Origin: Sphyrna mokarran
Taxonomy: Eukaryota
Assembly (NCBI GenBank): GCA_024679065.1
Contig: JAGIQG010000019.1
Span: 15,996,001 to 16,060,000, forward strand
Direction of reading: 5' to 3'
DNA length: 64,000 bases
The notes beneath the pieces were generated by a model. It made no database searches, had not been told where the DNA came from, and was given only the letters and a program-made list of their open reading frames with translations. A program made the translations under genes and the position numbers. This document shows, in pieces, positions 30 to 63,922 of this stretch. The stretch's first letter is position 1. Each line of letters starts with the position of its first letter.

Positions 30-796
30 GGCCAACAGCAATGACTCCATCAGGTATACCAATTGTTCCTGAGACGGCAATTACTGGTGAGTAGATCTCC
101 TTACATATTATAATTTGATATTAAGGTTGAGCAATTTGTAATTTAATACTCTGCAGCATTTTTTTTTTGTTAACTTGGACCAGCAGCAACTAGGGTGACA
201 GTAAATCCCATTGTTTCTGAAACTGCGAGTATTGAAGGGTGTATTCATTCGTATTGTGACAATAATATTTCAAGAACTTTGAATAATTAGCTTTTACAAG
301 CAAACAACATTTGAAACTTGTGAAATTTAACATTGTGTTGCTGAGAGCAGGTTCAACAATATTGTTGTTCCTTCAGGCAACATGCTGAGGAACTGTTCTG
401 AAGGGAAATCTCAAAATTTGAGTGAGGGAATTATTGTTGATATGCGAGATAGTTTATGGGTCATGTTTGATTCTTACTGAAGTGCAAGGAATTTCTGATT
501 GAATTTGACTTAAATAATGATGCCTATAATTAAACATTTACTGGGAAATGAATTACAGTAGTAGTGAATGAATACTTTGTCCAAATTTCTGTGCTATTCA
601 GGGCCAACAACTACTGCAGGAACAGGAGGATCGACAACTTCAGAGACCACTGTCAGTGGTGAGTTTGGGTTTTATTGTATTCACACATCAAATTAATTTA
701 TGTGCTTCTGGACCAATCTTGTTTCATTTTATCTCTGCTCTGTAGGGCCAATGACTGTGATAGGTACACTTCCTGTTTCTGAGAGTAGAATTACTG
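30..796 (+). CDS. Exons B 30-86, C 602-658, D 746-796 (51 nt)
   Basis: GPTAMTPSGIPIVPETAIT / GPTTTAGTGGSTTSETTVS / GPMTVIGTLPVSESRIT; AG/GT intact. Confidence 0.85.
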
Positions 797-3700
797 GTGG
801 GCAGAGCTTCTTCATGCAAGAAGATGTTGTTAATTTACTGCTATTTGTGATTTTAAAATCTTCCATATGTCTGCGTTCACATTGGACCAACACCAGCTGC
901 AGGGCAATCGCTCACATTGTTTCCGACACTGGGAATCACAATGAGTGAATGTATTCTCAATGTCATACGATGTTTGTGGTGCCAAGTTGTTGCAGCGAAA
1001 AGACATGTTGTTGTGCACCATTGCAATTCACTATATTTTCAGTCCGTTCTGATGGAAGGATTTGAATGTGTACCAGTTGAGTTGTTCCATTTTGCTTTAG
1101 GTGAGCATCATCTCGTTTGAATGTGCTTGTTTCTGCTTTATTCTGATTATAGTTTCTGATGGGAAAATGGACAGCAGATAAGAATTAATGATTGCTTTAT
1201 TTCAGTTTTTGTACACATTTCCTTCTCATGCATGTTGGTGTTTTACATGTCTCACTGCTATTGATGCATATTCATGTTGACATTGACAGAGCTTTTCATT
1301 GAAGGAAAATTGGAATATTAAGTGCTACCTGATAAAGCAGCTGATATCTTGAATTTTCAACGATAATGTTTGGAGGAGGACAGCTTTATTGAATATAATT
1401 ATTGATTGTAATGTGGACTGTGTCCTTGAAGTCCGCTTGAGAATAGAAATGGCAGTATTTATGAATTTAAAAAGATAGTAATAAGGTAGATTGTCCAAAT
1501 TTTAATGAACAGTAGTAGACCTTGGTTTTGACATTCTGCATTGCTGTTTTGGAAGTGTATATTGAAATTTAAAATTTGACATATTTGCATTTGCATTTTG
1601 AAGAGCTAGGATTTTCATGCTGCTGATTTCTGATCACTAAATGCATTTATTCACATAAATGATGATAAATGAGGCAACAGGCGATTTGAGATGTTCAACA
1701 ATGTATGGTTTGTCTGCGATCAAAAGGCCAAATGGAAAGTATCGCATTTGTTGACTTGCAGGATGACAGAGTCTTTTGTTTTGGCAGCATATTTTGATTT
1801 GGCAAAATTTTTGAATGACATACTCTATTCTTTGGGAAATAAACAATTTAGTCAGATGTAAAATTTAAATTTTACTGGCAAGTAACATGCAAATCATTTT
1901 GAGATAATTTAATGCTACAAAAATTTCTGACTCCATGTTGAATTTTTTTGTCATTGCCTGAAAAGCAGCTGGTTTTTGAGGGCAACTTGGTTGAGGAACT
2001 GTTTTGAATAGTAAGCGCTGCAATTGTAGAAGGCAATGATTAACTTTGTAGCTTGTGAATGGATATTTTCCTTTTTCTGTTTCACAATGCAGAACCATTT
2101 GTCACTTGAGGCTTTGACAGAAATAATGATGCTAAGATGTTAAAAAAATCTTGGGAAACAATTGCAGCAGTAATGAGAAAGTATATTGTACAAATTCTGC
2201 TTTTCTTTAGGGCTGACACCAATCACAGCAACTGGAAAACCTACAACTTCAGAGACTACCATCACTGGTGAGTATTATTTTTGGCATCGTAGTCACCTGA
2301 AATTAATTTATTTGATGAAGTTTCAAATTTGCTCAACTACTTAGGGCCAACAGCAATGACTCCATCAAGTGTACCAACTGTTCCCAAGACAGCAATTACT
2401 GGTGAGTAGATTTCCTTATGTGTTATAACCTGATATTCATGTTGGGGAATTAGTAACTTAATACTCTGCAGCATTTTCTCTGTTACCTTGAACTAGCATC
2501 AGCTCCGATGATAGCAACTCCCTTTATTTCTGAAACTGGGAATAATGATGGGAGTATTCGTTCACAATATTCCAGATTCTGAAACATTTTTGTAACAATT
2601 AAATTTCGTAAGCAAACACCATTTTAAATTTGAGAAATTTAATATTGTGTTGCTGAAAGCAGGTGAATATTGTTATTTCTTTAGGCAATATAGGTGAGGA
2701 ACTATTCTGAAGGGAAACCTCAGAATTTGAGTGAGGGAATTATTGCTGATCCACAATTATGGTTCATGTTTGATCCTTACTGAGGTGCAAGCAATTCCAG
2801 GTTAAGAATTTGACTAAGATCATGATGCTTATAACTAAACATTTCCTTGGAAATGAATTGCAGTATAGTGAATAAATACTCTGTCTAAATTTCTGTGCTG
2901 TTTAGTGATATCAATAACTGCAGGAACTGGAGGGCCAACCACTTCAGAGACCACTGTCAGTGGTGAGTTTCAGTTTTGTTGTACTCAGCACAGGAAATGA
3001 ATTTGCATGCTTTGTGAACTAATATTGTTTATTATTATCTCTACTCCCTAGGGCCAATGGCAATGACAGTGACAGGTACATTTCCTGTTTCTGAGAGCAG
3101 AACTACTGGTGAGCAGAGCTTCTTTCATATTATAACCTCCTATTAATTTTGTGCTAATTGTGATTTTTAATTCTACTACAAGTCTGATGATTTTTTTTAA
3201 CCTTTAAAACTGAGTTATCATCAGGAAACAACATCTCAAACTGTGAAGAAACTGACTGACAGCATGTCAATTATATTGTTATTCCTGCAGGCAACATGTC
3301 TGAGGAACTGTTCTGAAGGAACTTTTCAGAATTTGTTTCTTACTAAGGTGCAAGCAATTCCTTGTTGAGAATTTGACTAAGGGCCTGATTTTACCATTTT
3401 GATTCTAAGCGCTGAATCTGAGAGTGTTCCAAATTTGACTTGTTAACCTGTTCTCAGGCACCCTAGACAGTGATCTGACCCACCTCCCTCCTTCCCCACT
3501 ACCAGTGAGTGATCTGATCTGTCTCCCTGCTACCAGAAATCCATCTGACCTGCCTGCCTTGTCTTCTGCCCACTAGAGATTCATCTGATCCATTTCCCTC
3601 CTTCCCCTCCACCAGAGAGCATTCTGATTTGCCTCCCTTCTCCCCTCCCGTCTGCCTCCGCAACTGCCGATCTCAGTTAGGGAGCTGCTGGAAGTTCTGA

Positions 3701-6700
3701 ACTTACCTCTTCAAAAGCTGGAGTGCCCGAAACAGATCTTTGCAGACAATGTCTGTTTCATGCTGAATCTGGATAGCTGGATATGATGATAAAGGGGGAA
3801 ATGCCAGTAAGTTTGGACATCCAACCCATTAAGTCAATGCATTTCAATTGATGTTGCGCCTGTTTTGGGCACAGTGCCGATTGTGGTCATTTTAGGCACT
3901 TGGCAAAGGGGAAACAGGCATGGATGTGGTCACTGATCAAGGTTCTCACCTCACATCTGAATTTACCAAGTTCCCATGCCTGAAAATGGGTGCAACTTGT
4001 TTGTAAAATTAGCCCATGAGGATGCTGATATTGAACATTTCCTTGGAAATGAATTGAAGTAAAAGTGAATAAATACTCTATCACTTTTTGTGCTGTTTAG
4101 GGCCAACAATAATTGCAGGAACTGGAGGACCAACAACTTCAGAGACGACTGTCAGTGGTGAGTTTTGGTTTTATTGTAATTGCCACATCAAATTAATTTG
4201 TGTGTTTTGTGGACTAATGTTGTTTCATATTATCTCTGCTCTCTAGGGCCAATGGCAATGACTGTAACAGGTACACTTCCTGTTTCTGCGAGCAGAATTA
4301 CTGGTGAGCAAAGCTTCTTTCATGTTATAAGCTGCTGTTAGTTTTGTGCTATTTGTGATTTTTAACTCTGGTAGAGTTCTGCAGTTATACTAGACCTGCA
4401 CCAGGTAGCAGGGTAGTCACTATGAAAGTTGCTGAAACTTTGATTAACAATGACTGAATGTATTCCGAGTGCCATATGATGTTTGCCATGCCAAGGTGTA
4501 TACTTTAATGAACACTGGTAGATCCTGGTTTTGACATTCTGCAGTTCTGTTTCGGAAGCGTAAATATATAAAATTTAACGTATTTTTATCTGCATTTTGA
4601 TGAGCTAGGATTTTGGTGCTGTTGATTTTAGATCGTTAAATTCATTTATTTGTATGAATGATGACTGGTAAAGCATCAGGGAAACTTAAGATATACAGTA
4701 ATGCACTGTTAATCTGTGACCGAAAAGTCGAACGGAAAGCACTTCATTTATTGTTCTTGCAGAATGACACAGTCTTTTATTTTGATTCGGCAGTATGATA
4801 TACCTTGCTGGTGATACTGAGATACAGACAGACATGATTATTTCTTCCAACAGAATAAATTCAAAACAATAATTTCAATTCCGTAATGAATTCCTGATCG
4901 GAAATGTAGTTGTTCAGTGGGATTTTTGAATGATACCTTTATTCTATGAAAACAAATGAGTTAGTCAGCTTTAAAATTTAACTTTTACTGGCAAATAACA
5001 ACCAATTCATTTTGAGAAAGTTTAATGCCGCATTTGCCGACTCCATGTTGAATTTTTTTGTAATTTCCTGAACAGTAGCTGGTTTTTGAAGGCAATTTAT
5101 TCGAGGAACTGTTCTAAATGGTGAGCGCTGCAAGTGTGGAAGGGAATGATTAATTTTATAGATGCGTTTGGCTATCTTTTTCCTTCGCAATGTGGAACCA
5201 TTTGCCACTTGAGACTTGAATTGCATAATGATGCTAAGATAAATAAAATATTTTGGGAAGCAATTTTAGTGGTAATGAATAAATATTCTGTACAAATTCT
5301 ACTTCTCTTTAGGATCGACACCAATCCCAGGAACTGGAAGACCTACGACTTCAGAGACTACCATCAGTGGTGAGTGTTGTTTTTATCATCCTTGTCACCT
5401 GAAATTAATACATTTCATTGGTAGATTAATATTGTTAAATTTTTGTTCCACTACATAGGTCCAACAGCAATGACTCCATCAGGCGTCCCAACTGTTCCTG
5501 AGACAGCAATTACTGGTGAGTAGATCTCCTTACATATTATGACCTGATATTCATGTTGAACAATCTGTAATTAATACTGTGCAGCATTTTTTCTGTTACA
5601 TTGGACCAGCAGCAACTAGCATGATAGTATCTCCCATTGTTTCTGAAACAAAGAATAATGAGGGGAGCATTCATTCACATTGTCCCAATAATATTTCAGA
5701 TCCTTGAATAATTAACTTTGGCAAGCAAACAACATTTGAAATTTGTGAAATTTAATGCTGTTTGCTGTAAGCAGTTCAATTATTTTGTTATTCCTACAGG
5801 CAATATACCTGAGGAACTGTTCTGAAGGGAAGCCTCAGAATCTGAGGGAGGGAAATTATTGCTGACATTTCAAATTACTTACGGATCTTGTTTGTTCCTC
5901 CTGAGTTGCAAGCAATTCCCAGTTCATAATTTGTCTGAGTTAATGATGCTTATAATTAAACATTTCCTTGGAAATGAATTACAATTGTAGTGAATTAATA
6001 CACTATCCAAATTTCTGTGTTGTTTAGGGCCAACAACAACTGTGGGAACTGGAGGACCAACAACTTCAGAGACCACCATCAGTGGTGAGTTTTGGTTTTA
6101 CCGTATTCACCACATCAAATTAATTTGTGTGCTTTGTGGACTAATGTTGTTTCATATTATCTCTGCTCCCTAGGGCCAATGGCAATGACTGTGACAGGCA
6201 CACTTCCTGTTTCTGAGAGCAGAATTACTGGTGAGCAGAGATTCTTCATGTTAGAAGATGCTGTTAATCTTCTGCAATTTGTGATTTTTAACTCTTTCAC
6301 ATGTCTGCATTTACATTGACCTACAAAATCTGCAGGACAGTCACTCAGATTGTTTCTGACGCTTGGGGCCCAATATTACCATTTTCATTCTGAGTGCTAA
6401 ATCTGGGTATAATGCAGATCCATCTTAGAAATCTACTTTCAGACACCCCCAAATGCACTGAAAACAATCTCTAGTCCAATTCACGCTATGGGCAGGGCTT
6501 AGTGCAGCTGAAACGATTGAAGCTCTGAACTGTGCATGCACAGAAAAAAATTTGAAAAAGCGAGCCTGTATCAGATCGCTCCCGAGCTGCAGAAAGCAGA
6601 GAAATTGGCCTGCGAGCAACAAGCGAGAGTGATGGCCCCCACAGCCATCACCTGTCCCCTTATCCAAACCTCCTCTTACCCACACACATGGCTGTTCCCC

Positions 6701-44255: not shown

Positions 44256-44290
<35 letters not shown>

Positions 44291-53200: not shown

Positions 53201-56200
53201 TTGGAATGTTAAGTGCTACCTGACAGTAGATGTCTTGCATTATCAATTATAACATTTGGGAGTGGATAGTGTTATTGAATATGATTATTGATGAAAATAT
53301 AGGTTGTGCAATGTAACCGTGAAGTCAGCTTGAGACTGTGAATGGCAGCGTTTATGAATTTAAACAATAATAAGGCAGACAGTCCAAACTTTAATGAGCA
53401 GTCATAGATGCTGCTTTTAACATTCTACATTGCTGTTTTGGAAGCATATATTGAAATTTACAATTTAACATATTTTCATTTGTATTTTGAAGAGCTAGCA
53501 TGTGGGGACTGACTTTAGATTGCTAGATGCATTTATTTGCGTGAACGATGATTAGTAAGTCATCCAGAGATTTCAGATGTACAATAAAGCATGGTTTGTC
53601 TGTGACTGAAAAAGCTCCTCATTTGTAAACGAGCAGAACGACAGACTGTTTTATTTTGATTTGGAATTATGGATAAATGTGGCTGGTGAAATATATGTGC
53701 AGACAGACAGAAATAATTATTCCCTCCAACAGAATAAATTCAAAGCAGTAAATTTCAATATCGTAATGAATTCCTGATCAGAAATGCCAGTTGGATTTTT
53801 GAAAGACACATCTTATTCTTTGGAAAATAAATGATTTAGCCACTGTTAAAATTTCATTTTCACTGGCAAATATTCTCCAAATAATTTGCGGAAAATTTAG
53901 TGCTATGTTTGATGACCCCATGTTGAAGTTTTTATAATTGCCTAAAAAGTTGCTGGTTTTTGCAGGTAACTCGTCGAGAACCTGTTCTGAATGGTTAACG
54001 CTGCATTTGTGGAAGAGAATGATTGATTAATTTTGTAGTTTGTGTACCGATATTTTCCTTTTCTCTCCACAATGTGGAAGCATTTGCTACTTGAGGCTTT
54101 GACTGACATAGGGATGCTAAGATGAATTAAAAATCTTAAGAAGCAATTTCACTGTCAATGAATAAATATCCCATACAAATTCTGCTTTTTAGGGCCAACA
54201 CCATTCACAGGAATTGAAGGACCTACAACTTCAGAGACTACAGTCAGTTGTGAGTATTGTTTTTAGCATCCTCATCATCTGAAATTAATTGTTTTCATTG
54301 ATACATTAATATTGTTTCAAATTTGCTCCACTCCTTAGGGCCAACAGCAATGACTCCATCAAGTGTACCAACTGTTCCTGAGACAGCAATTACTGGTGAG
54401 TAGACCTCCTTGCACACTATAACCTGATAATAATTTTGAGCAATTTGTAATGTATTACTCTGCAGCATTTTTTCTGTTAACTTGGACCAGCAAACAACTC
54501 AGATGATAGTAACTCCCATTGTTTCTGACACTGGGTGTAATGATGGATGTCATTGTCACAATACATCAATGGATTCACATTATCACAATAATATTTCAGA
54601 ATCTTGAATAATTTAGCTTTCACAAGCAAACAACATTTGAAACTTATGAAATTGAACATTGTGTTGCTGAGAGTAGGTCAATGATATTGTTATTTCTTCA
54701 GTCATTGTACCTAAGGAACTGTTCTGAAGGGAAACCTCACAGTTTGAGTGAGGGAATTATTGCTGATCTCGAGAATGCTTATGCTTCATGTTTGATCCTT
54801 ACTGAGGTGCATGCAATTACTGGTTAAGAATTTGGCTAAGATAACAATGCTTATAATTAAATAGTTCTTTGGAAATGAATTGCAGTAGCAGTGAATAAAT
54901 ACTCTGTCCAAATATTTGTGCTCTTTAGGGCCAACAAGAACTGCAGGAACTGGAGGACCAACCACTTCAGAGACCACCATCAGTGGTAAGTTTCAGTTTA
55001 TCCGTACTCACCACATGAAATTAATTTGTGTGCTTCATGGACTCATCTTGTTTCATTTTATCTCTGCTTACCAGGCCCAATGGGAATGACTGTGACAGGT
55101 ACACTTCCTGTTTCTGAGAGCAGAATTACTGGTGAGCAGTGCTTTTTTTTCGTGTTATAAGCTGCTGTTAATTTTGTGCTATTTGTGTTTTTAACACTAC
55201 CCTAGGTCTATAGTTACGTTTTGACCTGCACCAGGTAGCAGGCCAGTCATTGTGATTAACCTGTGATTAAGAATAATTGAATGTATTCTCAGTGTTGTAT
55301 TATATGTCTGTGATGCCGAGATATCCAGGTAAGGTACATGTTGTTAGTGCATCATTGCCATTCGCTGTATTTTCAGTCCATTCAGATGGAAGATTTTGAT
55401 TGTGTATTGGGTGAGTTGTTCCCTATTGCTGTTGGTGAGCATCTTCTTGGTTGAATGTGCTTGTATTGGCTTTGTGCTGGATGTGAAATGGTCAACAGAT
55501 AGGAATTAATGATTGCTTTATTTCAGTCTTTGTACACATTTGCTTCTCAATGCAGAAACTGTAAAGACATGCATGTTGGTGTTTCACTTGCCTCAGTGCT
55601 AGTTGATGCATATTCATGTTGACATAGGGGCTTTTCAGTGAATGGAAATTGGATTGGTAAATGCTTCCTGATGAGTTGATATCTTGTATTAACGGTTATA
55701 ATGTTTGAAAGTGGGCAGTGTTATTGAATATGATTACTGATCATAATGTAGGTTGTGTCCATGATATCCATGAATGGCAGCATTTAGTAACAGCATTGCT
55801 GTTTTGGAAGTATATATTGAAATTTAAAATTTAATATATTTTCATCTGCATTTTGAAGACCTAGGATTTTGGTGCTATTGATTTTAGATCGCTAAATGTA
55901 TTTATTCAAATGAATGATGATTGGCAAGGCATCAGGAGATTTGAGATGTACAATAATGTATGGTTTGTCTGTGATCAAAAAGCGTACTGGAAAGCTCCTC
56001 ATTTGTAACCTTGCAGAATGACAAGCCTTTTATTATGATTTGGCAGTATGATAGACCTTGCTGATGAAATTTAGGTGCAGTTGGACAGACATAATTGTTT
56101 CTTCCAATAGAATAAATTCAAAGCAGTAAATTTCAATATCATAATAAATTCCTGATCAGGAATGCCACTTGTTCCGTGGGACTTTTGAAAGTCAAATTTT

Positions 56201-59200
56201 ATTCTTTGGAAAACAAATGATTTAGTCAGCTTTGAAATTTCACTTTTACTGGCAAATAACATCCCAATCAGTTTGGGAAAATTTAATGCTACATTTGCTG
56301 AGTTGATGTTGAATCTTTTTGTAATTGGCTGAAAAGTAGCTGGTTTTTCGAAGCAATTTGGTCAAGGACTTCTTATGAATGGTGAGCGCTGCATTTGTGG
56401 AAGGGAATGATTAACTTTGTAGTTTGTGAATGGATATTTTCCTTTTCCCTTTGCAATGTGAAACCATTTGCCACTTAAATCTTTGATTGACATAATGATG
56501 CTAAGATGAATAAAAAATCATGTGAAACAATTGCAGCAGTAATGAATAATTATTCTGTACAAATTCTGCTTTTGTTTAGGGCCGTTCACAGGAACTAGAA
56601 GACCTACAACTTCAGAGACTACTGTCACTAGTGAGTATGTTTTTGGCATTCTCGTGTCCTGAAATTAATTTATTTGATGGGTAGATTAATAATGTTTCAA
56701 ATTTGCCCCCCTACATAGGGCCAACAGCAATGACTCCATCAGGTGTACCAACTGTTCCTGAGACAGCAATTACTGGTGAGTGCATCTCCTTGCACATCAT
56801 AACCTGATATTAATTTTGCGCTATTTGTAATTTAATGCTTTGCAGCAGTTTTTTCTGTTACGTTAAACCAGCATCAGCTGGCATGATAGTAAATCCTATT
56901 GTTTCTGAAACGAAGAGTAATGACGTATGTATTCATTCACATTGTCACAATAGTATTTCAAAACCTCGAATAATTAGTTTTCAAAAGGAAACAACATTTG
57001 AAACTTATGAAATTTCACGTTGTGTTTGCAGGCAAGGGTCAGTTATGTTATTTCTTTAGTCAACATACCTGAGGAACTGTTCTGAAGGGAAACCTGAGAA
57101 TTTGAGTGAGAGAATTATTGCTGATCTGCGAGACAGTTTATGGGGCATGTTTGATCCTTACTGAGGTGCAAGCAATACCTGATTAAGAATTTGACTTAGA
57201 TAATGATATTTATAATTAAACATTTCCTTGGAAATGAATTGCAGTCATAGTGAATAAATGCTTGTCCAAATGTCTGTGCTGTTTAGGACCAACAAGAACT
57301 GCAGGAACTGGAGGACCGACCACTTCAGAGACCACTGTCAGGGGTGAGTTTCAGTTTTATCGTACCTGCCACATTAAATCAATTTATATGCTTTGTGGAC
57401 TAATGTTGTCTCATTTTATCCCTGCTCTCTAGGGCCAATGGCAATGACTGTGACAGGTACACTTCCTGTTTCTGCGAGCAGAATTACTGGTGAGCAGAGC
57501 TTCTTTGATGTTAAAAGCTGCTGTTAATTTTGTGCTATTTGTAATTTTTAACACTACCGTAGGTATAGTTATGTTGGAGCTGCACAAGGTAGCAAGGCAG
57601 TCACTCAGATATTTTTCAATTATGTAACTAACAATGATTGAATGTATTCTCAGTGTCATAGGATGTTTGCGATGCCAAGGTGTCCCAGGCAAGGGACATG
57701 TTGTTGGTGTGTCATTGCAGTTCACTGTATTTGCAGTCTATTCAGATGGACATGTTTGAATGTGTACCAGTTGAATTGTTCCATTGAGATGCTATTGGTA
57801 AGCATCTTCTTCTTTACAAGTGTTTGTTTTTGCTTTGTGCTGACGATAAAATGATCAACAGATAGAAATTATGATTGTTTCATTTCAGTTTTTGTATACA
57901 TTTGTTCCTCTGCAGATTCTGTAAAAATATGCATGTTGGTGTTTTACTACTAATTGATGCATATTCATGTTGACTCTGACAGAGTTTTTTATTGAAGGGA
58001 AATTGGAATACTAAGTGCTACCTTACAGAGTAGATGCCTTACATTATCAATTATAGCATTCAGAAATGGACAGTGTTATTGAATATGATTATTAATGGTA
58101 ATGCAGATTATGCAGCATGCCCCTGAAGGCAACTTGGGACCACGAATAGCAGAATTTGTGAATTTGAAAAGGTAGTCCTAAGGAAGACTTTCCAAACATT
58201 AATGAGCACTTGGAGAAGCTAGTTTTGACATTCTGCATTGTTGATTTAGAAGTATATATTGAAATTTAAAATTTGATACATTTACATTTGCATTTTGAAG
58301 AGGTAGGATTTTGGTGCTATAACTTTAGATGTCTAAATCCATTTATTTGCATGACTGATGATTGGTAACTGATCAAGAGATTTGAGATGGACAATAATGC
58401 GCGTTTGTCTGTGATGGAAAGGCTGAATGGAAAATATCTCATTTGTAGACTTGTAGAAAGACGGAGTCTTTTATTTTGGTCCACCAGTATGTTTGTCCTT
58501 GCTGGTGAAATTTATATGCAGACGTCAGATATAATTATTTCTTCCAACAAAATAAATTCAAAGCTGTAAATTTCAGCAAGATAATGAATCCCTGATCGGA
58601 AATGCCAGTTGTTCAGTGGATTTTTGGAAGATATACGTTATTCTCTGGAAAATAAATGATTTAGTCACTGTTAAAATTTCACTTTCACTGGCAAATAATA
58701 TCTGAATCGTTTTGAGAAAATTTAGTGTCATAATTGCTAACTCCATGTTGAATTTTTTGTAAGTACCTCAAAAATGACTGGTCGAGAAACTGTTCTGAAT
58801 GGTGAGAGCTGCATGTGTGAAAGGGAATGATTAATTTTATGGTTTGTGTATGGATATCTTCCTTTTTCCTTTGCAATGTAGAACCATTTGCCCCTTGAGG
58901 CTTTGACTGACATAATAATGCTAAGATGAATAAAAATTCTTAGAAACGATTGCAGCACGAATGAATAAATCTTTTATACAAATTCCGCTTCTCTTTAGGA
59001 TCGACACCATTTACAGGAACTGGAAGACCTACAACTTCAGAGACTACTGTCAGTGGTGAGTATTGTCTTTAGCATCCTCATCACTTGAAAGGAATTTCTT
59101 TGGTAGATTAATATTGCTTTACATTTGCTTGACTACATAGGGCCAACAGCAATGACTCCATCAGGCATACCAGCTGTTCCTGAGACAGCAATTACTGGTG

Positions 59201-62200
59201 AGTAGATCTCCTTATACATTATAACCTGATATTAATTTCGAGCTATTTGTAATTTAATGCTTTGCAGCATTTTTTTCTAATACCTTGGACCAGCACCAAC
59301 TCGGGTGATAGTAAATCCTATTGTTTCTGAAACGAAGATGGGTGTATTTTCTCATTGTCACAACAATATTTCAGACCTTTAAATAATTAGCTTTCACAAG
59401 CAAACAACATTAGAAACTTGTGAGATTTAATATTGTGTTGCTGAGAGCAGTTGAATGATATTGTTATTCTCTCGGGCAACATGGACGAGGAACTGTTCTG
59501 AAGGGAAACCTAGCATTTGAGTGAGGGAATTATCGCTGATATGCAAGATAGTTTACGGATCATGTTTGATCCTTACTGAGGTGCCAGCAATTCCTGGTTA
59601 AGAATTTGACTCAGATAATGATGCTTATAACTAATCATTTCCTTGGAAATGAATTGCAGTAATAGTACATCAATAATCCGTTCTAATTTTCATGCTGTTT
59701 AGGACCAACAAGAACTGCAGGAACTGGAGGACCAACCACTTCAGAGACCACTGTCCGTGGTGAGTTTCAGTTTATCGTACTGACTACATGAAGTTAATTT
59801 TTGTGCTTCCTGGATTAATGTTATTTCATATTATTTCTGCTCCTAGTCCCAGTGGCAATGACTGTGACAGGTACACTTCCTGTTTCAGAGAGCAGAATTA
59901 CTGGTGAGCAGAGCTTCTTTCATGTTAAAAGCTGCTGTTGGTTTTGTGCTATTTGTGGTTTTTAGCTCAATCATGTATTTCCAGTAAGACCTGCACACAG
60001 GAGCAGGATAGTGACTCAGATAGTTTCCGAAACTGTGATTAACAATGATTGAATGTACTCTCAGTGTCATATGATGTTTACCATGCCAAGGAATCCCTGG
60101 CAAGAGACATGTTGGTGCATCATTGCAGTTCTGTATTTTCATTCCATTCAGATGGAAGGGTTTGAATGTGTATCCGTTGAGTTGTCCCATATTGCTTTTG
60201 ATAAGCATCTTCTTGTTAGCATATGCTTGTCAGCATGTGCTTGTTTTTGCTTTGTGGTAATGATAGAATGGTCAGCAGAAAGGAATTATTGATTGCCTTC
60301 TTTCAGTTTTTTTATACGTTTGTTTCTCAGTGCAGAAACTGTAAAAACATGCATGTTAGTGTTTCTCTTGTCTTATTGCTGATTGATACATGTTCATGTT
60401 GACACTGACAGAGCTTTTCATTGAAGGGAAATTGGAATATTAAGTGCTACCTGACAGAGTAGATGTCTTGCATTATCAATTATAATGTCTGGAAGAGGAT
60501 TGTATTATAAAATATGATTATTGATGAAAATGTAGGTTGTGCAACATGTCCATGAAGTCAGATTGAGACTGTAAATGGCAGCATTTATGAATTTTAAAAA
60601 ATCATAAGGTAGACAGGCCAAACTTTAATGAGCAGTCATAGATGCTGGTTTTGGCATTCTGCATTGCTGTTTTGGAAGGGTTTATTGAAATTTAAAATCT
60701 AATATATTTACATTTGCGTTTTGAAGAGCTAATATTTTGGTGCTATTGACTTCAGATCATTAAATCCATTTATTTGCATGAATGATGATCGATAAGACAT
60801 CAGAAGATTTGTGATGTACAATAATGCATTGTTTGTCTGTGATAAAAGGCCGAATGGAAAGCATCTCATTTGTAGATTAACAGAATGACCAATTGTTCTA
60901 TTTTGATTTGGCAGTATGGATAAACTTTGCTGATAAAATGTACATGCAGACAGACAGAAATAATTATTCCCTCCAACAGAATAAATTCAATGCTGTAAAT
61001 TTCAATAACATAATGAATTCCTGTTCGGAAATGCTAGTGGGATTTTTGAAAGACATACTTTCTTCTTTGGAAAATAAATGATTTGGACACTGTTAAAATT
61101 TCATTTTTCACTGGCAAATATTCTCCAAATAATTTGGGGAAAATTTAGTGCCACATTTGTTGACCCTATGTCCAAGTTTTTGTAATTGCCTAAAAAGTAA
61201 TTGGTTTTTGCAGGCAACTTGGTTGAGGACCTGGTCTGAATTGTAAGCACTGCATTTGTGGAAAGGAATGATTAATTTTGTAGTTTGCGCACTGATATTT
61301 TCCTTTTTCCTTCGCAATGTGGAAGCATTTGCCACTTGAGGCTTTGACTGACATAGTGTTGCTAAGATGAATTAAAAATCTTGGGAAGCAATTTCACTGT
61401 TAATGAATAAATATTCTGTACTAATTCTGCTCCTCTTTAGGGCCAACACCATTCACAGGAACTGGAAGATCTACAACTTCAGAGACTACTGTCAGTGGTG
61501 AGTATTGTTTTTAGCATCCTTGTCATCTGAAATTAATTGATTTGTTTGGTAGACTAATATTGTTTCAAATTTGCTCGATTACATAGGGCCAACAGCAATG
61601 GTTCCATCAGGTGTACCAACTATTCCCGAGACAGCAATTACTGGTGAGTTGCTCTCATTACGCATTATAACCTGATATTCATGTTGGGAAATTTATAATT
61701 TAAAAATCTGTAGTATTTTTTCTGTTAACTTGGACCAGCAACACATCAGATGATAGTAAGCCCCATTGCATCTGACACTGGGTGTAATGATGAGTGTATC
61801 AGTTCACATTGTCACAATAAAATTTCAGAATCTTGAATAATTATCTTCCACAAGCAAACAACATTTGAAACTTGTGAAATTTTAATGTTGTGCTGCTGAG
61901 ACCAGGTCAATGATATTGTTGTTCCTTCAGTCAACGTGCCCGAGGAATTGTTGTGAAGGGAAACACCAGAATTTGAGTGAGGAATTTATTGCTGATCTCG
62001 AGAATATTTATGGGTCATGTTTGATCCTTACTGAGGTGCAAGCAATATCAAATGTCTGTGCTGTTTAGGGTCAACAAGAACTGCAGGAACTGAAGGACCA
62101 ACCACTTCAGAGACCACCATCAGTGGTGAGTTTCTGTTTTATCAAACTCACCACCTGAAATTAATTTGTGTGCTTTATGGACTCATCTTGTTTCATAGTA

Positions 62201-63922
62201 TCTCTGTTCCCTGGGCCCAATGGGAATGACTGTGACAGGTACACTTCCTGTTTCTAAGAGCAGTGTTACTGGTGAACTGGGCTTCTTCTGTTAGTGTTGT
62301 ATTATTTGTGATTTTTAATCCTACCCGAGGCCTACAGTTATATTGGATCTGCAGCAGATAGCAGAACAGTCACGCGGATAGTTTCTGAACCTGTGATTTA
62401 AGGACGATTGAATGTATTCTCGGTGTCATACAATGTTTGCGATGCCAAGGTGTCCCAGCTAAGGAATATGTTGTTAGTGTGTCATTGCAGTTCACTCTAT
62501 TTTTAGTCCATTCAGATGGAAGGCTTTGAATGTATATCAGTTGAGATGTTCCATACTGCTTTTCGTGAGCATCTTCTTCATTGTTTATGTATTGGCTTGT
62601 GTTGAAATTGTCAACAGATAGAAATTAATGATTGGTTTATTTGTACACATTTGCTTCTCAGTGTAGAAACTGTAAAGACATGCATGTTGGTGTTTCACTT
62701 GTCTGTTAATTGATGCATATTCATGTTGACACTGAAGGTGCTCTTCAGTGAGTGGAAATTGGAATAATAAATGCTACCTGATAGAGTAGATGTCTTGTAT
62801 TTCAATTATAATGTTTGAAAGTGGGCAGTGTTATTGAATGTGATTATTGATCATAATGTACGTTGTGTCCATGATGTTTATGAATTGAAACGGTAAGTAA
62901 GGCAGACTGTCCAAACTTTAATGAGCACTGGAAGATCCTGGTTTTGACATTCTGCATTGCATTTTGGAAGCATATATTGAAATTTAAAATTTAACATTTT
63001 CATTTGTATTTTGAAGACTTGGTGTTTGGTGCTATTGATTTTAGATTGCTAAATGCATTTATTCACATGAACGATGATTGGTAAGGCATTTGGTGATTTG
63101 AGATGTACAGTAATGCATGGTTTATCAGTGATCTGCTGGAAAGCTCCTCATTTGTAGCCTAGCCGAAGGACAGCATGTTTAATTTTGATTCGGCAGTATG
63201 ATAGACCTGATGAAATTTATGTGCAGGCATAATTATTCCTTCCAACAGAATAAATTCAAAGCAGTAAATTTCAATATTGTAATGAATTCCTGATCAGAAA
63301 TGCCATTTGTTCAGTGGGATTTTTGAAAGACAAACTTTATTCTTTGGAAAACAACTGATTTAATCAGCTTTGAAATTTCACTTTTACTGGCAAATAACAT
63401 CCAAATCATTTTGGGAAAATTTAATGCTATGTTTGCTGACTCCATGTTGAATTTTTTTGTAATTACCTGAAAAGTTAGCTGGTTTTTGAACACATTTTGG
63501 TCGACTAACTGTTCTGAATGATAAGAGCTGCGTTATTGGAAGAGAATGATTAACTGTGTAGTTTGTGAATGGAGATTTTCCTCTTTTCCTTCCCAATGTG
63601 GAGCCATTTACCACTTGAGGCTTTGATTGATGTAATGATGCTAAGATGAATAAGAAATCTCGGAAAACAATTGCAGCGGTAATGAGTAAATATTCTGTAC
63701 AAATTCTGCTTCTCTTTAGGGCCAACACCATTCAGCGGAACAGGAAGACCTACAACTTCAGAGACTACTATCAGTGGTGAGTATTATCTTTAGCATCTTC
63801 GTCATCTGAAATTAATTGATTTGTTTGGTAGATTAATATTGTTGCAAATTTGCCTCACTATATAGGGCCAATAGCAATGACTTCATCAGGTGTACCAACT
63901 GTTCCTGAAACAGCAATTACTG
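30..63922 (+). CDS. Internal part of a giant multi-exon mucin-like (PTS/Gly-rich) gene; ~92 symmetric phase-1 mini-exons, open at both window ends
   Basis: Recurring 57-nt blocks bounded by pyrimidine-rich AG and GTGAG. They translate without stops to Thr/Ser/Pro/Gly-rich 19-mers, look better conserved than the flanking introns, and their indels preserve frame. Confidence 0.88.
2211..3108 (+). CDS. Exons A 2211-2267, B 2345-2401, C 2906-2962, D 3052-3108
   Basis: 57-nt phase-1 exons, AG/GT intact, no stops. Confidence 0.85.
3381..4015. mobile_element. Non-autonomous TIR element (MITE-like, possibly PIF/Harbinger-related)
   Basis: Ends GGGCCTGATTTTAC and GTAAAATTAGCCC are imperfect inverted repeats. 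It interrupts unit sequence and is homologous to five other copies. Superfamily is a guess from the GGGC termini. Confidence 0.7.
4101..4303 (+). CDS. Exons C 4101-4157, D 4247-4303 (unit without A/B)
   Basis: GPTIIAGTGGPTTSETTVS / GPMAMTVTGTLPVSASRIT. Confidence 0.85.
5313..6230 (+). CDS. Exons A 5313-5369, B 5459-5515, C 6028-6084, D 6174-6230
   Basis: 57-nt phase-1 exons, AG/GT intact. Confidence 0.85.
6366..7128. mobile_element. Same TIR family, right end deleted
   Basis: Starts GGGCCCAATATTACCATTTTCATTCTGAG; C-rich minisatellite interior. Confidence 0.7.
7169..8640 (+). mobile_element. CR1-type LINE, 5'-truncated ORF2 (reverse transcriptase), decayed
   Basis: Motifs DKSLGPDGIYPRLL, DFSKAFDK, SGVPQGSVLGPLLF, KFADD, WQMEFNPDKC and LERVQRRFTRM; stops and frameshifts flank ORF 7558-8316. 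Confidence 0.95.
8855..9172 (+). mobile_element. V-SINE (HE1-like) with CR1-type 3' tail
   Basis: tRNA-like head GGGCAACACGACAGCTCAGTG, V-domain GAGTTTGCGCATTCTCCCC...GGTGCTCTGGTTTCCTCCC, and tail GGGCCGAAGGGCCTGTTTCCTGTGCTGT(TTGTTCT)n. Confidence 0.8.
10125..10823 (+). pseudogene. Pseudo-exons A 10125-10181, B 10271-10327 and truncated C from 10794
   Basis: Donors read CTGAG and TTGAG. The C copy breaks off after GPTRTIGT with TGA. Confidence 0.75.
10927..11129 (+). CDS. Exons C 10927-10983, D 11073-11129
   Basis: AG/GT intact, no stops. Confidence 0.85.
12633..13549 (+). CDS. Exons A 12633-12689, B 12773-12829, C 13349-13402 (54 nt), D 13493-13549
   Basis: AG/GT intact; in-frame 3-nt deletion in C. 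Confidence 0.85.
13686..15090. mobile_element. Same TIR family with expanded minisatellite, right end truncated
   Basis: Starts GGGGCTCGATTTTACCATTTGCATTCTAAG; same insertion site as the copies at 6366 and 25538. Confidence 0.7.
13957..14525 (+). repeat. ~37-bp C-rich minisatellite (approx. CCCACACACATCACTGTCCCCCTTATCCACCCCCCACTA), about 15 degenerate copies
   Basis: Repeated CATCACTGTCCCCCTTATCCA cores; shorter arrays at ~6640-6915 and ~25810-25975. Confidence 0.85.
15657..16951. mobile_element. Same TIR family, left TIR clipped
   Basis: ATTTTACCATTATCATTCTAAG ... GTAAAATCAGGCCC; interrupts the consensus GAATGACAGA/GTCTTTT. Confidence 0.7.
17495..18406 (+). CDS. Exons A 17495-17551, B 17641-17697, C 18204-18260, D 18350-18406
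   Basis: AG/GT intact, no stops. Confidence 0.85.
19831..19897 (+). mobile_element. 67-bp 3' tail of the CR1/HE1 family
   Basis: Matches 9110-9172; flanked by a TACA duplication. Confidence 0.8.
19991..20193 (+). CDS. Exons C 19991-20047, D 20137-20193 (unit without A/B)
   Basis: AG/GT intact; D acceptor is the weaker GAG. Confidence 0.8.
21708..22595 (+). CDS. Exons A 21708-21764, B 21854-21910, C 22393-22449, D 22539-22595
   Basis: AG/GT intact, no stops. Confidence 0.85.
23535..23969 (+). mobile_element. Penelope-like element 3' fragment
   Basis: 14-bp TSD GACTTGCAGAATGA. Encodes KQRLIAKFYTHENGLNRDLGF (GIY-YIG C-terminus-like). Contains a degenerate hammerhead core at 23882-23905 followed by AATAAA. 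Confidence 0.8.
24519..25404 (+). CDS. Exons A 24519-24575, B 24660-24713 (54 nt), C 25204-25257 (54 nt), D 25348-25404
   Basis: AG/GT intact; two in-frame 3-nt deletions. Confidence 0.85.
25538..26807. mobile_element. Same TIR family, chimeric copy
   Basis: Left junction equals that of the 13686 copy; right junction (TTAAAATTGGCCCC) equals that of the copy ending at 16951. Confidence 0.7.
27353..28248 (+). CDS. Exons A 27353-27409, B 27498-27554, C 28047-28103; D 28192-28248 lacks its acceptor
   Basis: D is preceded by CT instead of AG. Confidence 0.8.
29765..31558 (+). CDS. Exons A 29765-29821, B 29941-29997, C 31356-31412, D 31502-31558
   Basis: AG/GT intact; CR1 insertion in the B-C intron. 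Confidence 0.85.
30255..31107 (+). mobile_element. CR1-type LINE 3' fragment
   Basis: DLDRLSQWARIWQMDYNVGKCEVIHFG, LEGVQRMFIRLI, RRLRGDLIETYKIM; tail CCTACTCCTGCTCTTATTTCTTATGT. Confidence 0.93.
33055..33969 (+). CDS. Exons A 33055-33111, B 33201-33257, C 33768-33824, D 33913-33969
   Basis: AG/GT intact, no stops. Confidence 0.85.
35482..36546 (+). CDS. Exons A 35482-35538, B 35628-35684, C 36346-36402, D 36490-36546
   Basis: AG/GT intact, no stops. Confidence 0.85.
35957..36109 (+). mobile_element. Penelope-like terminal fragment
   Basis: Close match to 23820-23969; imperfect TSD ATTTCCTC/ATTCCCTC. Confidence 0.75.
38068..38985 (+). CDS. Exons A 38068-38124, B 38213-38269, C 38785-38841, D 38929-38985
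   Basis: AG/GT intact, no stops. Confidence 0.85.
40877..41364. mobile_element. Penelope-like insertion as an inverted terminal-repeat pair, inside exon B
   Basis: TSD ACCATCAGGTGT (40865-40876 and 41365-41376). Arms 40909-41128 and 41149-41368 are reverse complements. Homologous to the 23535 element. Confidence 0.85.
41265..41300 (+). ncRNA. Minimal type I hammerhead ribozyme motif (Penelope-type); mirror copy on the - strand at ~40977-41012
   Basis: CTGATGA-A-GACAC-GGGA-GTGTT-GAAA-GCTC: intact core, stem II and palindromic AGCT stem III. Confidence 0.65.
41916..42118 (+). CDS. Exons C 41916-41972, D 42062-42118
   Basis: AG/GT intact, no stops. Confidence 0.85.
43601..45632 (+). CDS. Exons A 43601-43657, B 43747-43803, C 45576-45632 (D deleted)
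   Basis: AG/GT intact; after the C donor GTGAA the sequence jumps into the late D-A intron. Confidence 0.8.
43932..45198. mobile_element. Same TIR family, both ends present, in a B-C intron
   Basis: GGGCCCAATTTTACC ... CTAAATTGGGCCG. Confidence 0.72.
44257..44289 (+). repeat. (CA)n microsatellite, preceded by (GT)n at 44229-44242
   Basis: Read directly. Confidence 0.95.
46087..47002 (+). CDS. Exons A 46087-46143, B 46233-46289, C 46801-46857, D 46946-47002
   Basis: AG/GT intact, no stops. Confidence 0.85.
47118..48046 (-). mobile_element. CR1-type LINE 3' fragment, antisense, internally deleted
   Basis: ORF 47482-48051 has FDKVSH, SGVPQESVLGP and KFADD. The tail is seen as CATAAGAACATAAGAAATAGGAGCAGG. 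GTCA is duplicated at the flanks. Confidence 0.93.
49412..50282 (+). CDS. Exons A 49412-49468, B 49558-49614, C 50081-50137, D 50226-50282
   Basis: AG/GT intact, no stops. Confidence 0.85.
51797..52675 (+). CDS. Exons A 51797-51853, C 52486-52530 (45 nt), D 52619-52675; B 51942-51998 is a pseudo-exon
   Basis: B has a TG acceptor and an AT donor; C has an in-frame 12-nt deletion. Confidence 0.8.
54193..55131 (+). CDS. Exons A 54193-54249, B 54339-54395, C 54929-54985, D 55075-55131
   Basis: AG/GT intact, no stops. Confidence 0.85.
56580..57489 (+). CDS. Exons A 56580-56630 (51 nt), B 56719-56775, C 57287-57343, D 57433-57489
   Basis: AG/GT intact; in-frame 6-nt deletion in A. Confidence 0.85.
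58999..59903 (+). CDS. Exons A 58999-59055, B 59141-59197, C 59703-59759, D 59847-59903
   Basis: AG/GT intact, no stops. Confidence 0.85.
61441..62271 (+). CDS. Exons A 61441-61497, B 61587-61643, C 62069-62125; D 62215-62271 lacks its acceptor
   Basis: D is preceded by GG instead of AG and has the weakened donor GTGAAC. Confidence 0.8.
63720..63922 (+). CDS. Exons A 63720-63776, B 63866-63922
   Basis: AG/GT intact, no stops. Confidence 0.85.

What the first reader, a model, noticed from the sequence alone, without database searches (positions are those of the whole stretch)
30..63922. Hidden giant mucin-like gene built from ~92 interchangeable 57-nt cassette exons: candidate combinatorial glycoprotein-diversification locus
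Seen: four exon types recur in about 24 units, and all are phase 1-1 with lengths divisible by 3. Almost any subset therefore splices in frame, usually with Gly rebuilt at the junction (G+GN). Copies differ by a few residues. 85 intact exons give about 1,600 aa, and the array runs off both window ends. Known: most vertebrate mucins (MUC2, MUC5AC, MUC1) put the PTS repeat in one large exon. Cassette-encoded repeats occur in MUC19, Xenopus integumentary mucins, schistosome SmPoMuc/micro-exon genes and the CD45 A/B/C exons. Inference: this is an unannotated shark-type gene whose O-glycosylated domain length and sequence can be tuned by exon skipping and unequal crossover.
Basis: partly seen in the sequence, partly recalled or inferred. 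Interest (0 to 1): 0.9.

Follow-up and report, generated by a model that had tools for sequence, protein, structure and literature searches.

The report
Shark Muc19 mucin with cassette exons
This stretch is the middle of a very large shark mucus-protein gene of the known mucin-19 family, in which the sugar-coated stalk is written as hundreds of short exons that can each be dropped without breaking the reading frame, so the stalk length could vary by splicing, though that is not yet shown.

Summary
Observation confirmed: 92 exon-like cassettes (four types, mostly 57 nt, all phase 1-1), 85 intact, 1,604 aa. The window is the middle third of a 238-cassette, 179-kb array. Flanking exons identify the gene: signal peptide, three VWD-C8-TIL units, one CysD, the cassette PTS domain, VWC and cystine knot, no fourth VWD. 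A 256-exon model gives 5,639 aa with one terminal stop. It lies directly after LRRK2 and groups with MUC19/spiggin, not MUC2/5. Shark orthologues exist in RefSeq only as fragments. Selection removes stops, splice loss and Asn/Cys/Asp, but ordinary missense changes drift as freely as synonymous ones: a composition-constrained glycan stalk, not an encoded repertoire. Two neighbouring paralogs have their own cassette arrays, and skate and sawfish RefSeq models already list PTS-deletion isoforms. Exon-per-repeat mucins and splicing-tuned length were proposed for chicken Muc13 in 2006. No cassette splice joint was observed; one RNA-like contig of a relative fits spliced 3' exons. The scan earlier noted a similar but unrelated exon array in another shark genome. 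Verdict: new variant of a known kind, unusual in scale; combinatorial diversification unsupported.

The parts
30..63922 (+). Central third (92 of 238 cassettes) of the PTS exon array of a Muc19-clade mucin gene. The rest of the gene lies outside the window on G000:C760: leader and D1-D2-D'-D3 exons 15,862,600-15,928,067; short Thr-rich exons, CysD exon (15,932,987-15,933,346) and two diverged PTS exons to 15,940,163; 62 upstream cassettes 15,945,598-15,995,940; 84 downstream cassettes 16,060,431-16,124,793; two unique PTS, two VWC-like and two cystine-knot exons, stop and AATAAA 16,126,163-16,135,454
30..796 (+). Unit 1 (its D cassette lies just before the window): A 30-86, B 602-658, C 746-796 (51 nt)
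2211..4303 (+). Unit 2: D 2211-2267, A 2345-2401, B 2906-2962, C 3052-3108, extra B 4101-4157 and C 4247-4303
5313..6230 (+). Unit 3: D 5313-5369, A 5459-5515, B 6028-6084, C 6174-6230
10125..11129 (+). Unit 4: D 10125-10181 (donor lost), A 10271-10327 (donor lost), B 10927-10983, C 11073-11129
12633..13549 (+). Unit 5: D 12633-12689, A 12773-12829, B 13349-13402 (54 nt), C 13493-13549
17495..20193 (+). Unit 6: D 17495-17551, A 17641-17697, B 18204-18260, C 18350-18406, extra B 19991-20047 and C 20137-20193
21708..22595 (+). Unit 7: D 21708-21764, A 21854-21910, B 22393-22449, C 22539-22595
24519..25404 (+). Unit 8: D 24519-24575, A 24660-24713 (54 nt), B 25204-25257 (54 nt), C 25348-25404
27353..28248 (+). 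Unit 9: D 27353-27409, A 27498-27554, B 28047-28103, C 28192-28248 (acceptor lost)
29765..31558 (+). Unit 10: D 29765-29821, A 29941-29997, B 31356-31412, C 31502-31558
33055..33969 (+). Unit 11: D 33055-33111, A 33201-33257, B 33768-33824, C 33913-33969
35482..36546 (+). Unit 12: D 35482-35538, A 35628-35684, B 36346-36402, C 36490-36546
38068..38985 (+). Unit 13: D 38068-38124, A 38213-38269, B 38785-38841, C 38929-38985
40705..42118 (+). Unit 14: D remnant 40705-40759 (5' half lost; a chance AG makes a 55-nt out-of-frame exon), A remnant about 41342-41405 (5' half and acceptor lost), B 41916-41972, C 42062-42118
43601..45632 (+). Unit 15: D 43601-43657, A 43747-43803, B 45576-45632 (no C)
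46087..47002 (+). Unit 16: D 46087-46143, A 46233-46289, B 46801-46857, C 46946-47002
49412..50282 (+). Unit 17: D 49412-49468, A 49558-49614, B 50081-50137, C 50226-50282
51797..52675 (+). Unit 18: D 51797-51853, A 51942-51998 (both splice sites lost), B 52486-52530 (45 nt), C 52619-52675
54193..55131 (+). Unit 19: D 54193-54249, A 54339-54395, B 54929-54985, C 55075-55131
56580..57489 (+). Unit 20: D 56580-56630 (51 nt), A 56719-56775, B 57287-57343, C 57433-57489
58999..59903 (+). Unit 21: D 58999-59055, A 59141-59197, B 59703-59759, C 59847-59903
61441..62271 (+). Unit 22: D 61441-61497, A 61587-61643, B 62069-62125, C 62215-62271 (acceptor lost)
63720..63922 (+). Unit 23 (continues past the window): D 63720-63776, A 63866-63922

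Best explanation
The window is the central part of a Muc19-clade secreted gel-forming mucin gene of a carcharhiniform-type shark. The protein has a leader, D1-D2-D'-D3, one CysD, about 4,070 aa of Thr/Gly/Pro/Ser-rich stalk and a VWC-cystine knot end. By established mucin biology the knot dimerises, the D3 region multimerises and the stalk is densely O-glycosylated (inferred, not tested). The stalk grew by tandem duplication of a 2.4-kb genomic unit holding four small phase 1-1 exons (shown from sequence). Because every cassette keeps the frame, cassettes can be gained, lost, or silenced by splice-site mutation at little cost (22 of 238 are broken). Selection keeps splice signals, frame and residue composition but not the exact sequence (shown). 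Most cassettes are probably included, with leaky, largely unregulated skipping that gives a spread of stalk lengths on top of allelic copy-number variation (inferred). I put the gene's identity at about 0.95, its being expressed at about 0.85, and this splicing mode at 0.6.
For: Domains: C8 E 1.7e-10 and 6.9e-9, TIL 1.6e-7, VWD 8.3e-6, CysD 2.3e-13 on single exons (8 of 14 exons tested had a hit, the cystine-knot half-exon only below cut-off at E 0.066). Complete model: 34+216+6 exons, all AG-GT except one GC donor, 5,639 aa, one stop at the end, Cys 115/0/19 in N-terminus/cassettes/C-terminus. Best hit 94% to Mustelus mucin-19-like. LRRK2 ARM exons at C760:15.68-15.77 Mb, same strand. Tree: groups with tetrapod MUC19 and teleost Muc19-like at SH-like 100, apart from seven MUC2/5-type rows. 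Selection, counting distinct single-base variants in 215 57-nt copies: synonymous 83 of 186 seen, nonsense 1 of 18 (p 0.0008), splice AG/GT 12 of 48 (p 0.014), ordinary missense 179 of 397 (p 0.93). 17 of 22 exon length variants keep the frame. Bamboo-shark and whale-shark models hold related cassette peptides, the former joined to the same CysD and VWC-knot ends. One 644-nt contig of RNA-like run X3 lies exactly on the first VWC exon and its depth accounts for cover on the exons before and after it. Five cassettes keep AG and GT yet carry a stop or frameshift, so a full-length product needs them skipped unless they are assembly errors.
Against: No joint between two cassettes was displayed, whose tables were filled by SINE matches and cut; the spliced reading of the X3 contig is inferred from depth arithmetic, the run is from a related species and is RNA only by the tool's guess. 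Cassette donors are strong (mean 9.2-10.0 against 6.9 for 30 unique exons, recalled weight matrix), which favours constitutive inclusion. The tree lacks MUC6, otogelin and VWF and used FastTree only. The single CysD is atypical of mammalian MUC19. At least one of the five poison cassettes (16,081,652) looks like an assembly error. Copies share ancestry, so the p-values are approximate.
Confidence: 0.6

Rival explanations
1. Same gene, but skipping is regulated: tissues or states include different numbers or types of cassettes and so set stalk length and gel mesh size.
For: Acceptor strength differs by type (B 4.4, A 5.9, D 8.0, C 9.2), so A and B could be the tunable exons. Fourfold sites diverge less than intron interiors (8.5% against 14.4%), which fits exonic splicing signals. 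RefSeq isoform sets of skate and sawfish paralogs differ by in-frame PTS deletions. FIM-C.1 of Xenopus is described as polymorphic through alternative splicing (PMC7177656, passage).
Against: No tissue data. The RefSeq isoforms are automatic and can arise from short reads misplaced in repeats. Low fourfold divergence may also reflect gene conversion or base composition. In chicken MUC2 the passage seen reports one PTS-skipping product and no detectable further splicing on infection (PMC3549977).
Confidence: 0.17
2. Same gene, essentially constitutive: all intact cassettes are spliced in order, and length varies only between alleles by unequal crossover. Frame symmetry is simply what tandem exon duplication requires.
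For: Strong donors in all four types. Any tandemly duplicated exon must be frame-symmetric to survive, so symmetry alone says nothing on skipping (established knowledge). Recent block duplications exist. Two S. torazame isoforms differ only by 1-4 residues outside the PTS.
Against: Three poison cassettes have moderate to strong sites on both sides. Weak A and B acceptors over about 216 consecutive small exons make error-free inclusion unlikely (inference).
Confidence: 0.15
3. The array is a decaying pseudogene or a satellite that once held exons.
For: 22 of 238 cassettes are broken; ordinary missense changes are unconstrained.
Against: All 40 non-array exons are open with canonical sites and give one frame from start to stop; stops, splice loss and frameshifts are depleted; orthologous parts are kept in Mustelus, whale shark, bamboo shark and a stingray.
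Confidence: 0.05
4. Dscam-like or SmPoMuc-like combinatorial diversification: cassette choice creates a repertoire of distinct glyco-epitopes for recognition or evasion.
For: 167 distinct peptides among 216 intact cassettes; nearly all joins stay in frame.
Against: No excess of missense over synonymous variants. The product is a secreted gel-forming mucin with no recognition domain in the array. Cassettes are additive, not mutually exclusive. A minus-strand search showed no docking site with a complement placed at each cassette, only one inverted intron copy and short matches (output cut at 2,000 characters).
Confidence: 0.03

Closest known systems
Muc19/spiggin clade of gel-forming mucins (human MUC19, porcine and bovine submaxillary mucin, stickleback spiggin)
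   Same: Three N-terminal VWD-C8-TIL units, PTS, VWC-like segment and cystine knot, no fourth VWD (PMC4948705, passages); position after LRRK2; phylogenetic grouping.
   Different: One CysD domain. The whole repeat stalk is in 45-60-nt exons, whereas the human MUC19 VNTR lies in a roughly 12-kb exon (PMC10557577 and PMC13345508, passages). That mammalian MUC19 also has many small PTS exons is recalled; the primary papers were not held.
RefSeq fragments of the shark orthologue: Mustelus asterias mucin-19-like XP_078090731.1, Rhincodon typus mucin-2-like XP_048466531.1, Chiloscyllium plagiosum mucin-5AC-like XP_043569129.1, Hemitrygon akajei apomucin-like XP_072923025.1
   Same: 85-95% identity over most N-terminal exons (Mustelus); same CysD-PTS-VWC-knot order without D4 (Chiloscyllium); B/D-type cassette peptides recognisable in whale and bamboo shark.
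   Different: None holds the full gene: the Mustelus model reads into the intron after the CysD exon and stops; the others hold a few cassettes or only the 3' end; names vary among mucin-19, -2 and -5AC.
Chicken Muc13 (Lang et al. 2006, PMC1552070)
   Same: One exon per PTS repeat of about 20 aa; the authors propose length control by alternative splicing and an ancestral multi-exon design (section read).
   Different: Transmembrane SEA mucin with at least 12 repeats; here a secreted mucin with 238 cassettes in a four-type unit.
Xenopus MucXS/Otogl and FIM-C.1 skin mucins
   Same: Multi-exonic central mucin domain (PMC5789918, passage); FIM-C.1 polymorphism ascribed to alternative splicing (PMC7177656, passage).
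   Different: MucXS alternates Cys-rich and PTS repeats; FIM-C.1 has trefoil domains; orthology to this gene was not tested.
Other elasmobranch Muc19-cluster paralogs
   Same: Own families of phase 1-1 PTS cassettes in two neighbouring genes; skate and sawfish RefSeq isoforms with PTS deletions.
   Different: Different, more Thr-rich cassette sequences; several carry D4 and repeated CysD domains.

Membership tests
Gel-forming mucins (MUC2/5/6/19 class) | N-terminal signal peptide | tested here: inconclusive
   Met followed by a short hydrophobic run, 88% identical to the Mustelus start; no signal-peptide predictor was available.
Gel-forming mucins (MUC2/5/6/19 class) | Three VWD-C8-TIL units before the PTS | tested here: met
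   Pfam hits on single exons; exon-by-exon match to the D1-D3 region of P0001; P0001 matches solved MUC5AC, MUC2 and MUC5B N-termini at about 700 bits.
Gel-forming mucins (MUC2/5/6/19 class) | Central Pro/Thr/Ser-rich domain | tested here: met
   4,071 aa, 51% T+S+P, no Cys or Asn.
Gel-forming mucins (MUC2/5/6/19 class) | C-terminal cystine knot | tested here: met
   19 Cys in the last 176 aa; last exon matches mucin C-termini. Pfam Cys_knot on a half-domain exon stayed below cut-off (E 0.066).
Gel-forming mucins (MUC2/5/6/19 class) | Secretion, O-glycosylation and disulfide polymerisation | not testable with these tools
   Needs protein work.
Muc19/spiggin clade | D-domain phylogeny groups with MUC19, apart from MUC2/5 | tested here: met
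   FastTree, 21 rows, 13-row clade at SH-like 100; MUC6, OTOG and VWF were not included.
Muc19/spiggin clade | Conserved position next to LRRK2 | tested here: met
   All 10 ARM_LRRK2 matches lie at C760:15.68-15.77 Mb on the same strand, about 100-180 kb before the start codon. Human MUC19 and LRRK2 share one 742-kb region (PMC10557577, figure legend); their adjacency is recalled.
Muc19/spiggin clade | CNTN1 on the far side (recalled from the human locus) | tested here: inconclusive
   80 kb sampled beyond the cluster showed no recognisable contactin exon by eye; the gene may lie further on.
Mammalian-type MUC19 architecture (not filed under this) | No fourth VWD after the PTS | tested here: met
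   Only 3.5 kb separate the array from the VWC exon; tblastn with D4-bearing paralogs finds nothing there.
Mammalian-type MUC19 architecture (not filed under this) | No CysD domain | tested here: not met
   One CysD exon. Other shark members of the clade also carry CysD, so this separates it from mammalian MUC19 but not from the clade.
MUC2/MUC5AC/MUC5B | Fourth VWD-C8-TIL unit | tested here: not met
MUC2/MUC5AC/MUC5B | Phylogenetic grouping with MUC2/5 | tested here: not met
MUC2/MUC5AC/MUC5B | Location in the TOLLIP-linked cluster | not tested
   TOLLIP was not searched; a separate VWD-rich cluster lies on C1437 at 63.8-65.2 Mb.
Dscam-type combinatorial splicing | Mutually exclusive exon clusters with docking-selector pairing | tested here: inconclusive
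   No complement placed at each cassette was seen among the displayed minus-strand matches; short or imperfect pairings would be missed.
Dscam-type combinatorial splicing | Sequence diversification of the variable exons under selection | tested here: not met
   Ordinary missense variants 179 of 397, synonymous 83 of 186.
Dscam-type combinatorial splicing | Cell-specific isoform choice | not testable with these tools
   Needs single-cell long reads.

The most novel reading that the evidence does not exclude
Sharks tune the length of a gel-forming mucin inside one animal by regulated skipping among more than 200 distinguishable cassette exons, with the weak-acceptor A and B types as the adjustable parts and perhaps intron pairing (one inverted intron copy lies just past the window) looping cassettes out. 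The whole elasmobranch Muc19 cluster would use this design, each paralog with its own cassette family. This would be a direct case, at a far larger scale, of the splicing control of mucin length proposed for chicken Muc13 in 2006.
Probability: 0.17. Interest if true: 0.7.

Novelty: new variant of a known kind. Interest (0 to 1): 0.38.

Why it matters
It completes a 273-kb, 256-exon mucin gene that automatic annotation breaks into misnamed fragments, and shows that at least three genes of a shark Muc19 cluster build their glycan stalks from small exons, in line with the suggestion that multi-exon PTS domains are ancestral. Because the 216 intact cassettes hold 185 distinct DNA sequences, long reads can assign most exons, which makes the old question of whether splicing sets mucin length within an individual directly testable. 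The copies also give a natural mutagenesis of a mucin stalk: sequence is free, while Asn, Cys, Asp, His, Tyr, stops and frameshifts are removed.

Tried and rejected
Expression search: no RNA holder listed on record; ten runs of relatives held 0.10-0.41 of the words of the last exon; this is no evidence either way. Laying reads on L027:2600-10000: tables were dominated by SINE/LINE matches, 332 joints and most pieces were not shown; runs X1 and X2 had no cover on the first VWC exon, and none of X1-X3 covered the first unique PTS exon after the array, which proves nothing for contigs. Tandem Repeats Finder does not see the array (period over 500). A fuzzy regex under-counted cassettes (42 matches) and was replaced by weight matrices. 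COR-A search did not locate LRRK2; the ARM model did. The intron-rate neutral simulation overstates depletion because exons diverge less overall and copies are related; I rely on the distinct-variant count, in which the Asn/Cys/Asp/His/Tyr/Trp class (3 of 47) was chosen after seeing these residues missing. The first tree held a mis-assembled row for this gene and is disregarded; one search replaces it. No transmembrane or SEA ending was found: the gene ends in a knot, a stop and AATAAA. CNTN1 was not found in 80 kb sampled. No structure prediction was run, as the domains are known and the stalk is expected to be disordered. Zhu 2011 and Das 2010 on MUC19 were not held. The scan's notes held nothing for this genome or sequence.

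Full report
Observation. Weight-matrix scans and alignment find 92 cassettes between window 30 and 63922, all on the + strand, of four types in the order D-A-B-C (22 D, 23 A, 24 B, 23 C). D-A and B-C introns are about 89 nt, A-B about 500 nt and C-D about 1,500 nt. 85 of 92 have AG, GT, a length divisible by three and no stop, for 1,604 aa; junction codons are Gly in 76 of 84 consecutive joins, and 6 of 3,570 forward pairs would give a stop. A strict pattern occurs 76 times on +, once on -, and 0.025 times in Markov controls.

Extent. The window is G000:C760:15,996,001-16,060,000 of a 2.77-Gb genome. In 464 kb read around it, the array holds 238 cassettes from 15,945,598 to 16,124,793, none on the minus strand; 216 are intact and 22 broken. 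Three 11.1-kb blocks at 98.4% identity and a 2.4-kb block repeated 38.7 kb away show recent unequal crossover.

The gene. Upstream lie exons for a hydrophobic leader, three VWD-C8-TIL units (15,862,600-15,928,067) and one CysD (15,932,987-15,933,346); downstream lie two unique PTS exons, two VWC-like exons and two cystine-knot exons (16,126,163-16,135,217). Joined with the 216 intact cassettes they give 256 exons, all AG-GT but one GC donor, 5,639 aa and a single terminal stop, followed by AATAAA. There is no fourth VWD. One C8 exon is 94% identical to Mustelus asterias mucin-19-like, the only hit among 2 candidates, so the animal is most likely a carcharhiniform shark (inference). That RefSeq model runs into the intron after the CysD exon and stops. 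The 3' end is present in bamboo-shark and stingray models under other names; the bamboo-shark model joins CysD, a few related cassette peptides (B-type match P 0 of 500 shuffles, D-type 0.004, C-type 0.018, A-type 0.062) and the same VWC-knot end. The whale-shark model also ends in B/D-like peptides (0 of 300 shuffles), while three other paralogs' PTS regions did not match.

Family. All 10 matches of the LRRK2 ARM model lie about 100-180 kb upstream on the same strand. Among 120 listed homologs of the N-terminus, the named tetrapod hits at the top are mucin-19. A FastTree of 21 rows places the gene with tetrapod MUC19 and teleost Muc19-like proteins at SH-like 100, apart from seven MUC2/5-type rows and a sea-urchin row; MUC6, OTOG and VWF were not included. 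It is therefore a Muc19-clade gel-forming mucin, the first of a cluster with further VWD matches at 16.25-17.01 Mb. It differs from mammalian MUC19 in having a CysD. Of 12 sampled 10-kb stretches of the cluster, six held arrays of unrelated phase 1-1 Thr-rich cassettes: 33 exons in four stretches at 16.64-16.74 Mb (+) and 9 in two stretches at 16.93-16.96 Mb (-). The design is thus shared by at least three paralogs.

Selection. In 215 copies of 57 nt (23 others left out), divergence from the type consensus is 7.5% at 0-fold sites, 8.5% at 4-fold sites, 14.4% in the interiors of the short introns and about 2% at AG and GT. Counting each possible single-base change once, 83 of 186 synonymous, 179 of 397 ordinary missense, 1 of 18 nonsense, 12 of 48 splice-site and 3 of 47 changes to Asn/Cys/Asp/His/Tyr/Trp are seen (the last class was picked after the fact). 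17 of 22 length variants keep the frame. The exons are maintained as exons and as an O-glycosylatable, Cys- and Asn-free stalk, while their exact sequence drifts. This argues against both a pseudogene and a selected repertoire.

Transcripts. Contigs of three RNA-like runs of relatives and one other run were laid on the 3' end of the array. One X3 contig (644 nt, depth 5) lies on L027:8317-8418, the first VWC exon, with 41 and 501 further letters on its sides; bin depths of 0.83, 2.06 and 1.07 equal what this contig gives on the preceding PTS exon, this exon and the next. That fits a spliced mRNA, but the joints were not displayed and the run is RNA only by guess. X1-X3 also have cover in the two bins with a B and a C cassette and none at the 12 intron positions listed there, a weak hint. 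No cassette-to-cassette joint was seen, so skipping is neither shown nor excluded. Five cassettes keep AG and GT but carry a stop or frameshift, one of them in the window at 40705; two have one weak site and one looks like an assembly error. If real, they must be skipped for a full-length protein. RefSeq isoforms of paralogs differ by in-frame PTS deletions: 13 of 13 skate isoforms compared (13-86 aa; 15 of 16 members listed, one unrelated shorter protein left out), 13 of 14 sawfish isoforms (37-74 aa; 15 of 42 listed), 2 of 4 dingo MUC19 isoforms, and 0 of 2 S. torazame isoforms. These are automatic models whose exon borders I did not check.

How it most likely works. A secreted mucin polymerises through its D3 and knot ends and carries a glycan brush on about 1,580 Thr/Ser residues (established mucin biology; count). 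Frame-symmetric exons let the brush grow and shrink by genomic duplication and tolerate dead cassettes. Strong donors and weaker A and B acceptors (recalled weight matrix) suggest mostly inclusion with some leaky skipping. Regulated skipping (0.17), strict constitutive splicing (0.15), pseudogene (0.05) and Dscam-like diversification (0.03) are the rivals.

What is known. Lang 2016 (PMC4948705; abstract, passages and section 13 read, supplements not read, and its synteny figure and sequence files may bear on this) gives the domain rules, notes three Muc19 paralogs in ghost shark and skin expression of frog Muc19. Lang 2006 (PMC1552070; passages and section 8) describes one exon per repeat in chicken Muc13 and proposes splicing control of length. 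Passages were read in PMC5789918 (multi-exonic MucXS domain), PMC7177656 (FIM-C.1 splicing polymorphism), PMC3549977 (multi-exon chicken MUC2 PTS, one skip product), PMC9712336 (single PTS exon in human MUC2/5AC/5B/6), PMC10557577 and PMC13345508 (human MUC19 VNTR in one large exon), PMC2180178 (spiggin is the Muc19 orthologue), PMC3056801 (bovine MUC19) and PMC13558645 (muc19 marks a mucosal cell cluster in dogfish skin). Searches listed no paper on the exon structure of shark Muc19 genes (judged from listings); subscription journals are not covered. The many small PTS exons of mammalian MUC19, FIM-B.1 splicing, SmPoMuc and Dscam are recalled, not checked.

Verdict. A real and probably functional Muc19-clade mucin, a new variant of a known kind: unusual in scale and in having its whole stalk in cassettes, absent as a full model from the protein sets searched, but with known precedent for both the architecture and the splicing hypothesis. 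Interest 0.38.

Noticed in passing
G000:C760:16,061,931-16,062,329 (L021:1931-2329, about 2 kb past the window end): An inverted copy of about 400 nt of the A-B intron, 84-90% like the sense copies; in the pre-mRNA it could pair with an A-B intron and loop out cassettes. Single copy, probably a chance inversion.
   Followed up: no
G000:C760:15,970,288-15,970,315 (L018): A short inversion at the start of a C cassette leaves a 58-nt out-of-frame exon with AG and GT.
   Followed up: partly
L045-L048 (C760:16.64-16.74 Mb, +): A paralog with its own four-exon cassette unit (45/63/60/60 nt, phase 1-1), seen in all four stretches sampled over 100 kb.
   Followed up: partly
L051-L052 (C760:16.93-16.96 Mb, -): A minus-strand paralog with 57-78-nt Thr-rich cassettes and repeated CysD exons.
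   Followed up: partly
L038-L044 (C760:16.238-16.30 Mb, +): The next paralog has a short PTS, a CysD and a fourth VWD unit.
   Followed up: partly
window 7540-8316 (+) and 47482-48051 (-): LINE reverse-transcriptase fragments in C-D introns (family assignment by recalled motif).
   Followed up: no
window 6556-7170, 13936-14845, 25709-26469, 44018-44656: C-rich low-complexity inserts in long introns, some with 38-44-nt tandem units.
   Followed up: no
G000:C1437:63.8-65.2 Mb: A second large cluster of VWD matches, possibly an expanded MUC2/5/6 locus.
   Followed up: no
G000:C760:16,081,652 (L023): A B cassette with several one-base gaps whose sister in the next 11.1-kb block is intact; likely an assembly error.
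   Followed up: partly
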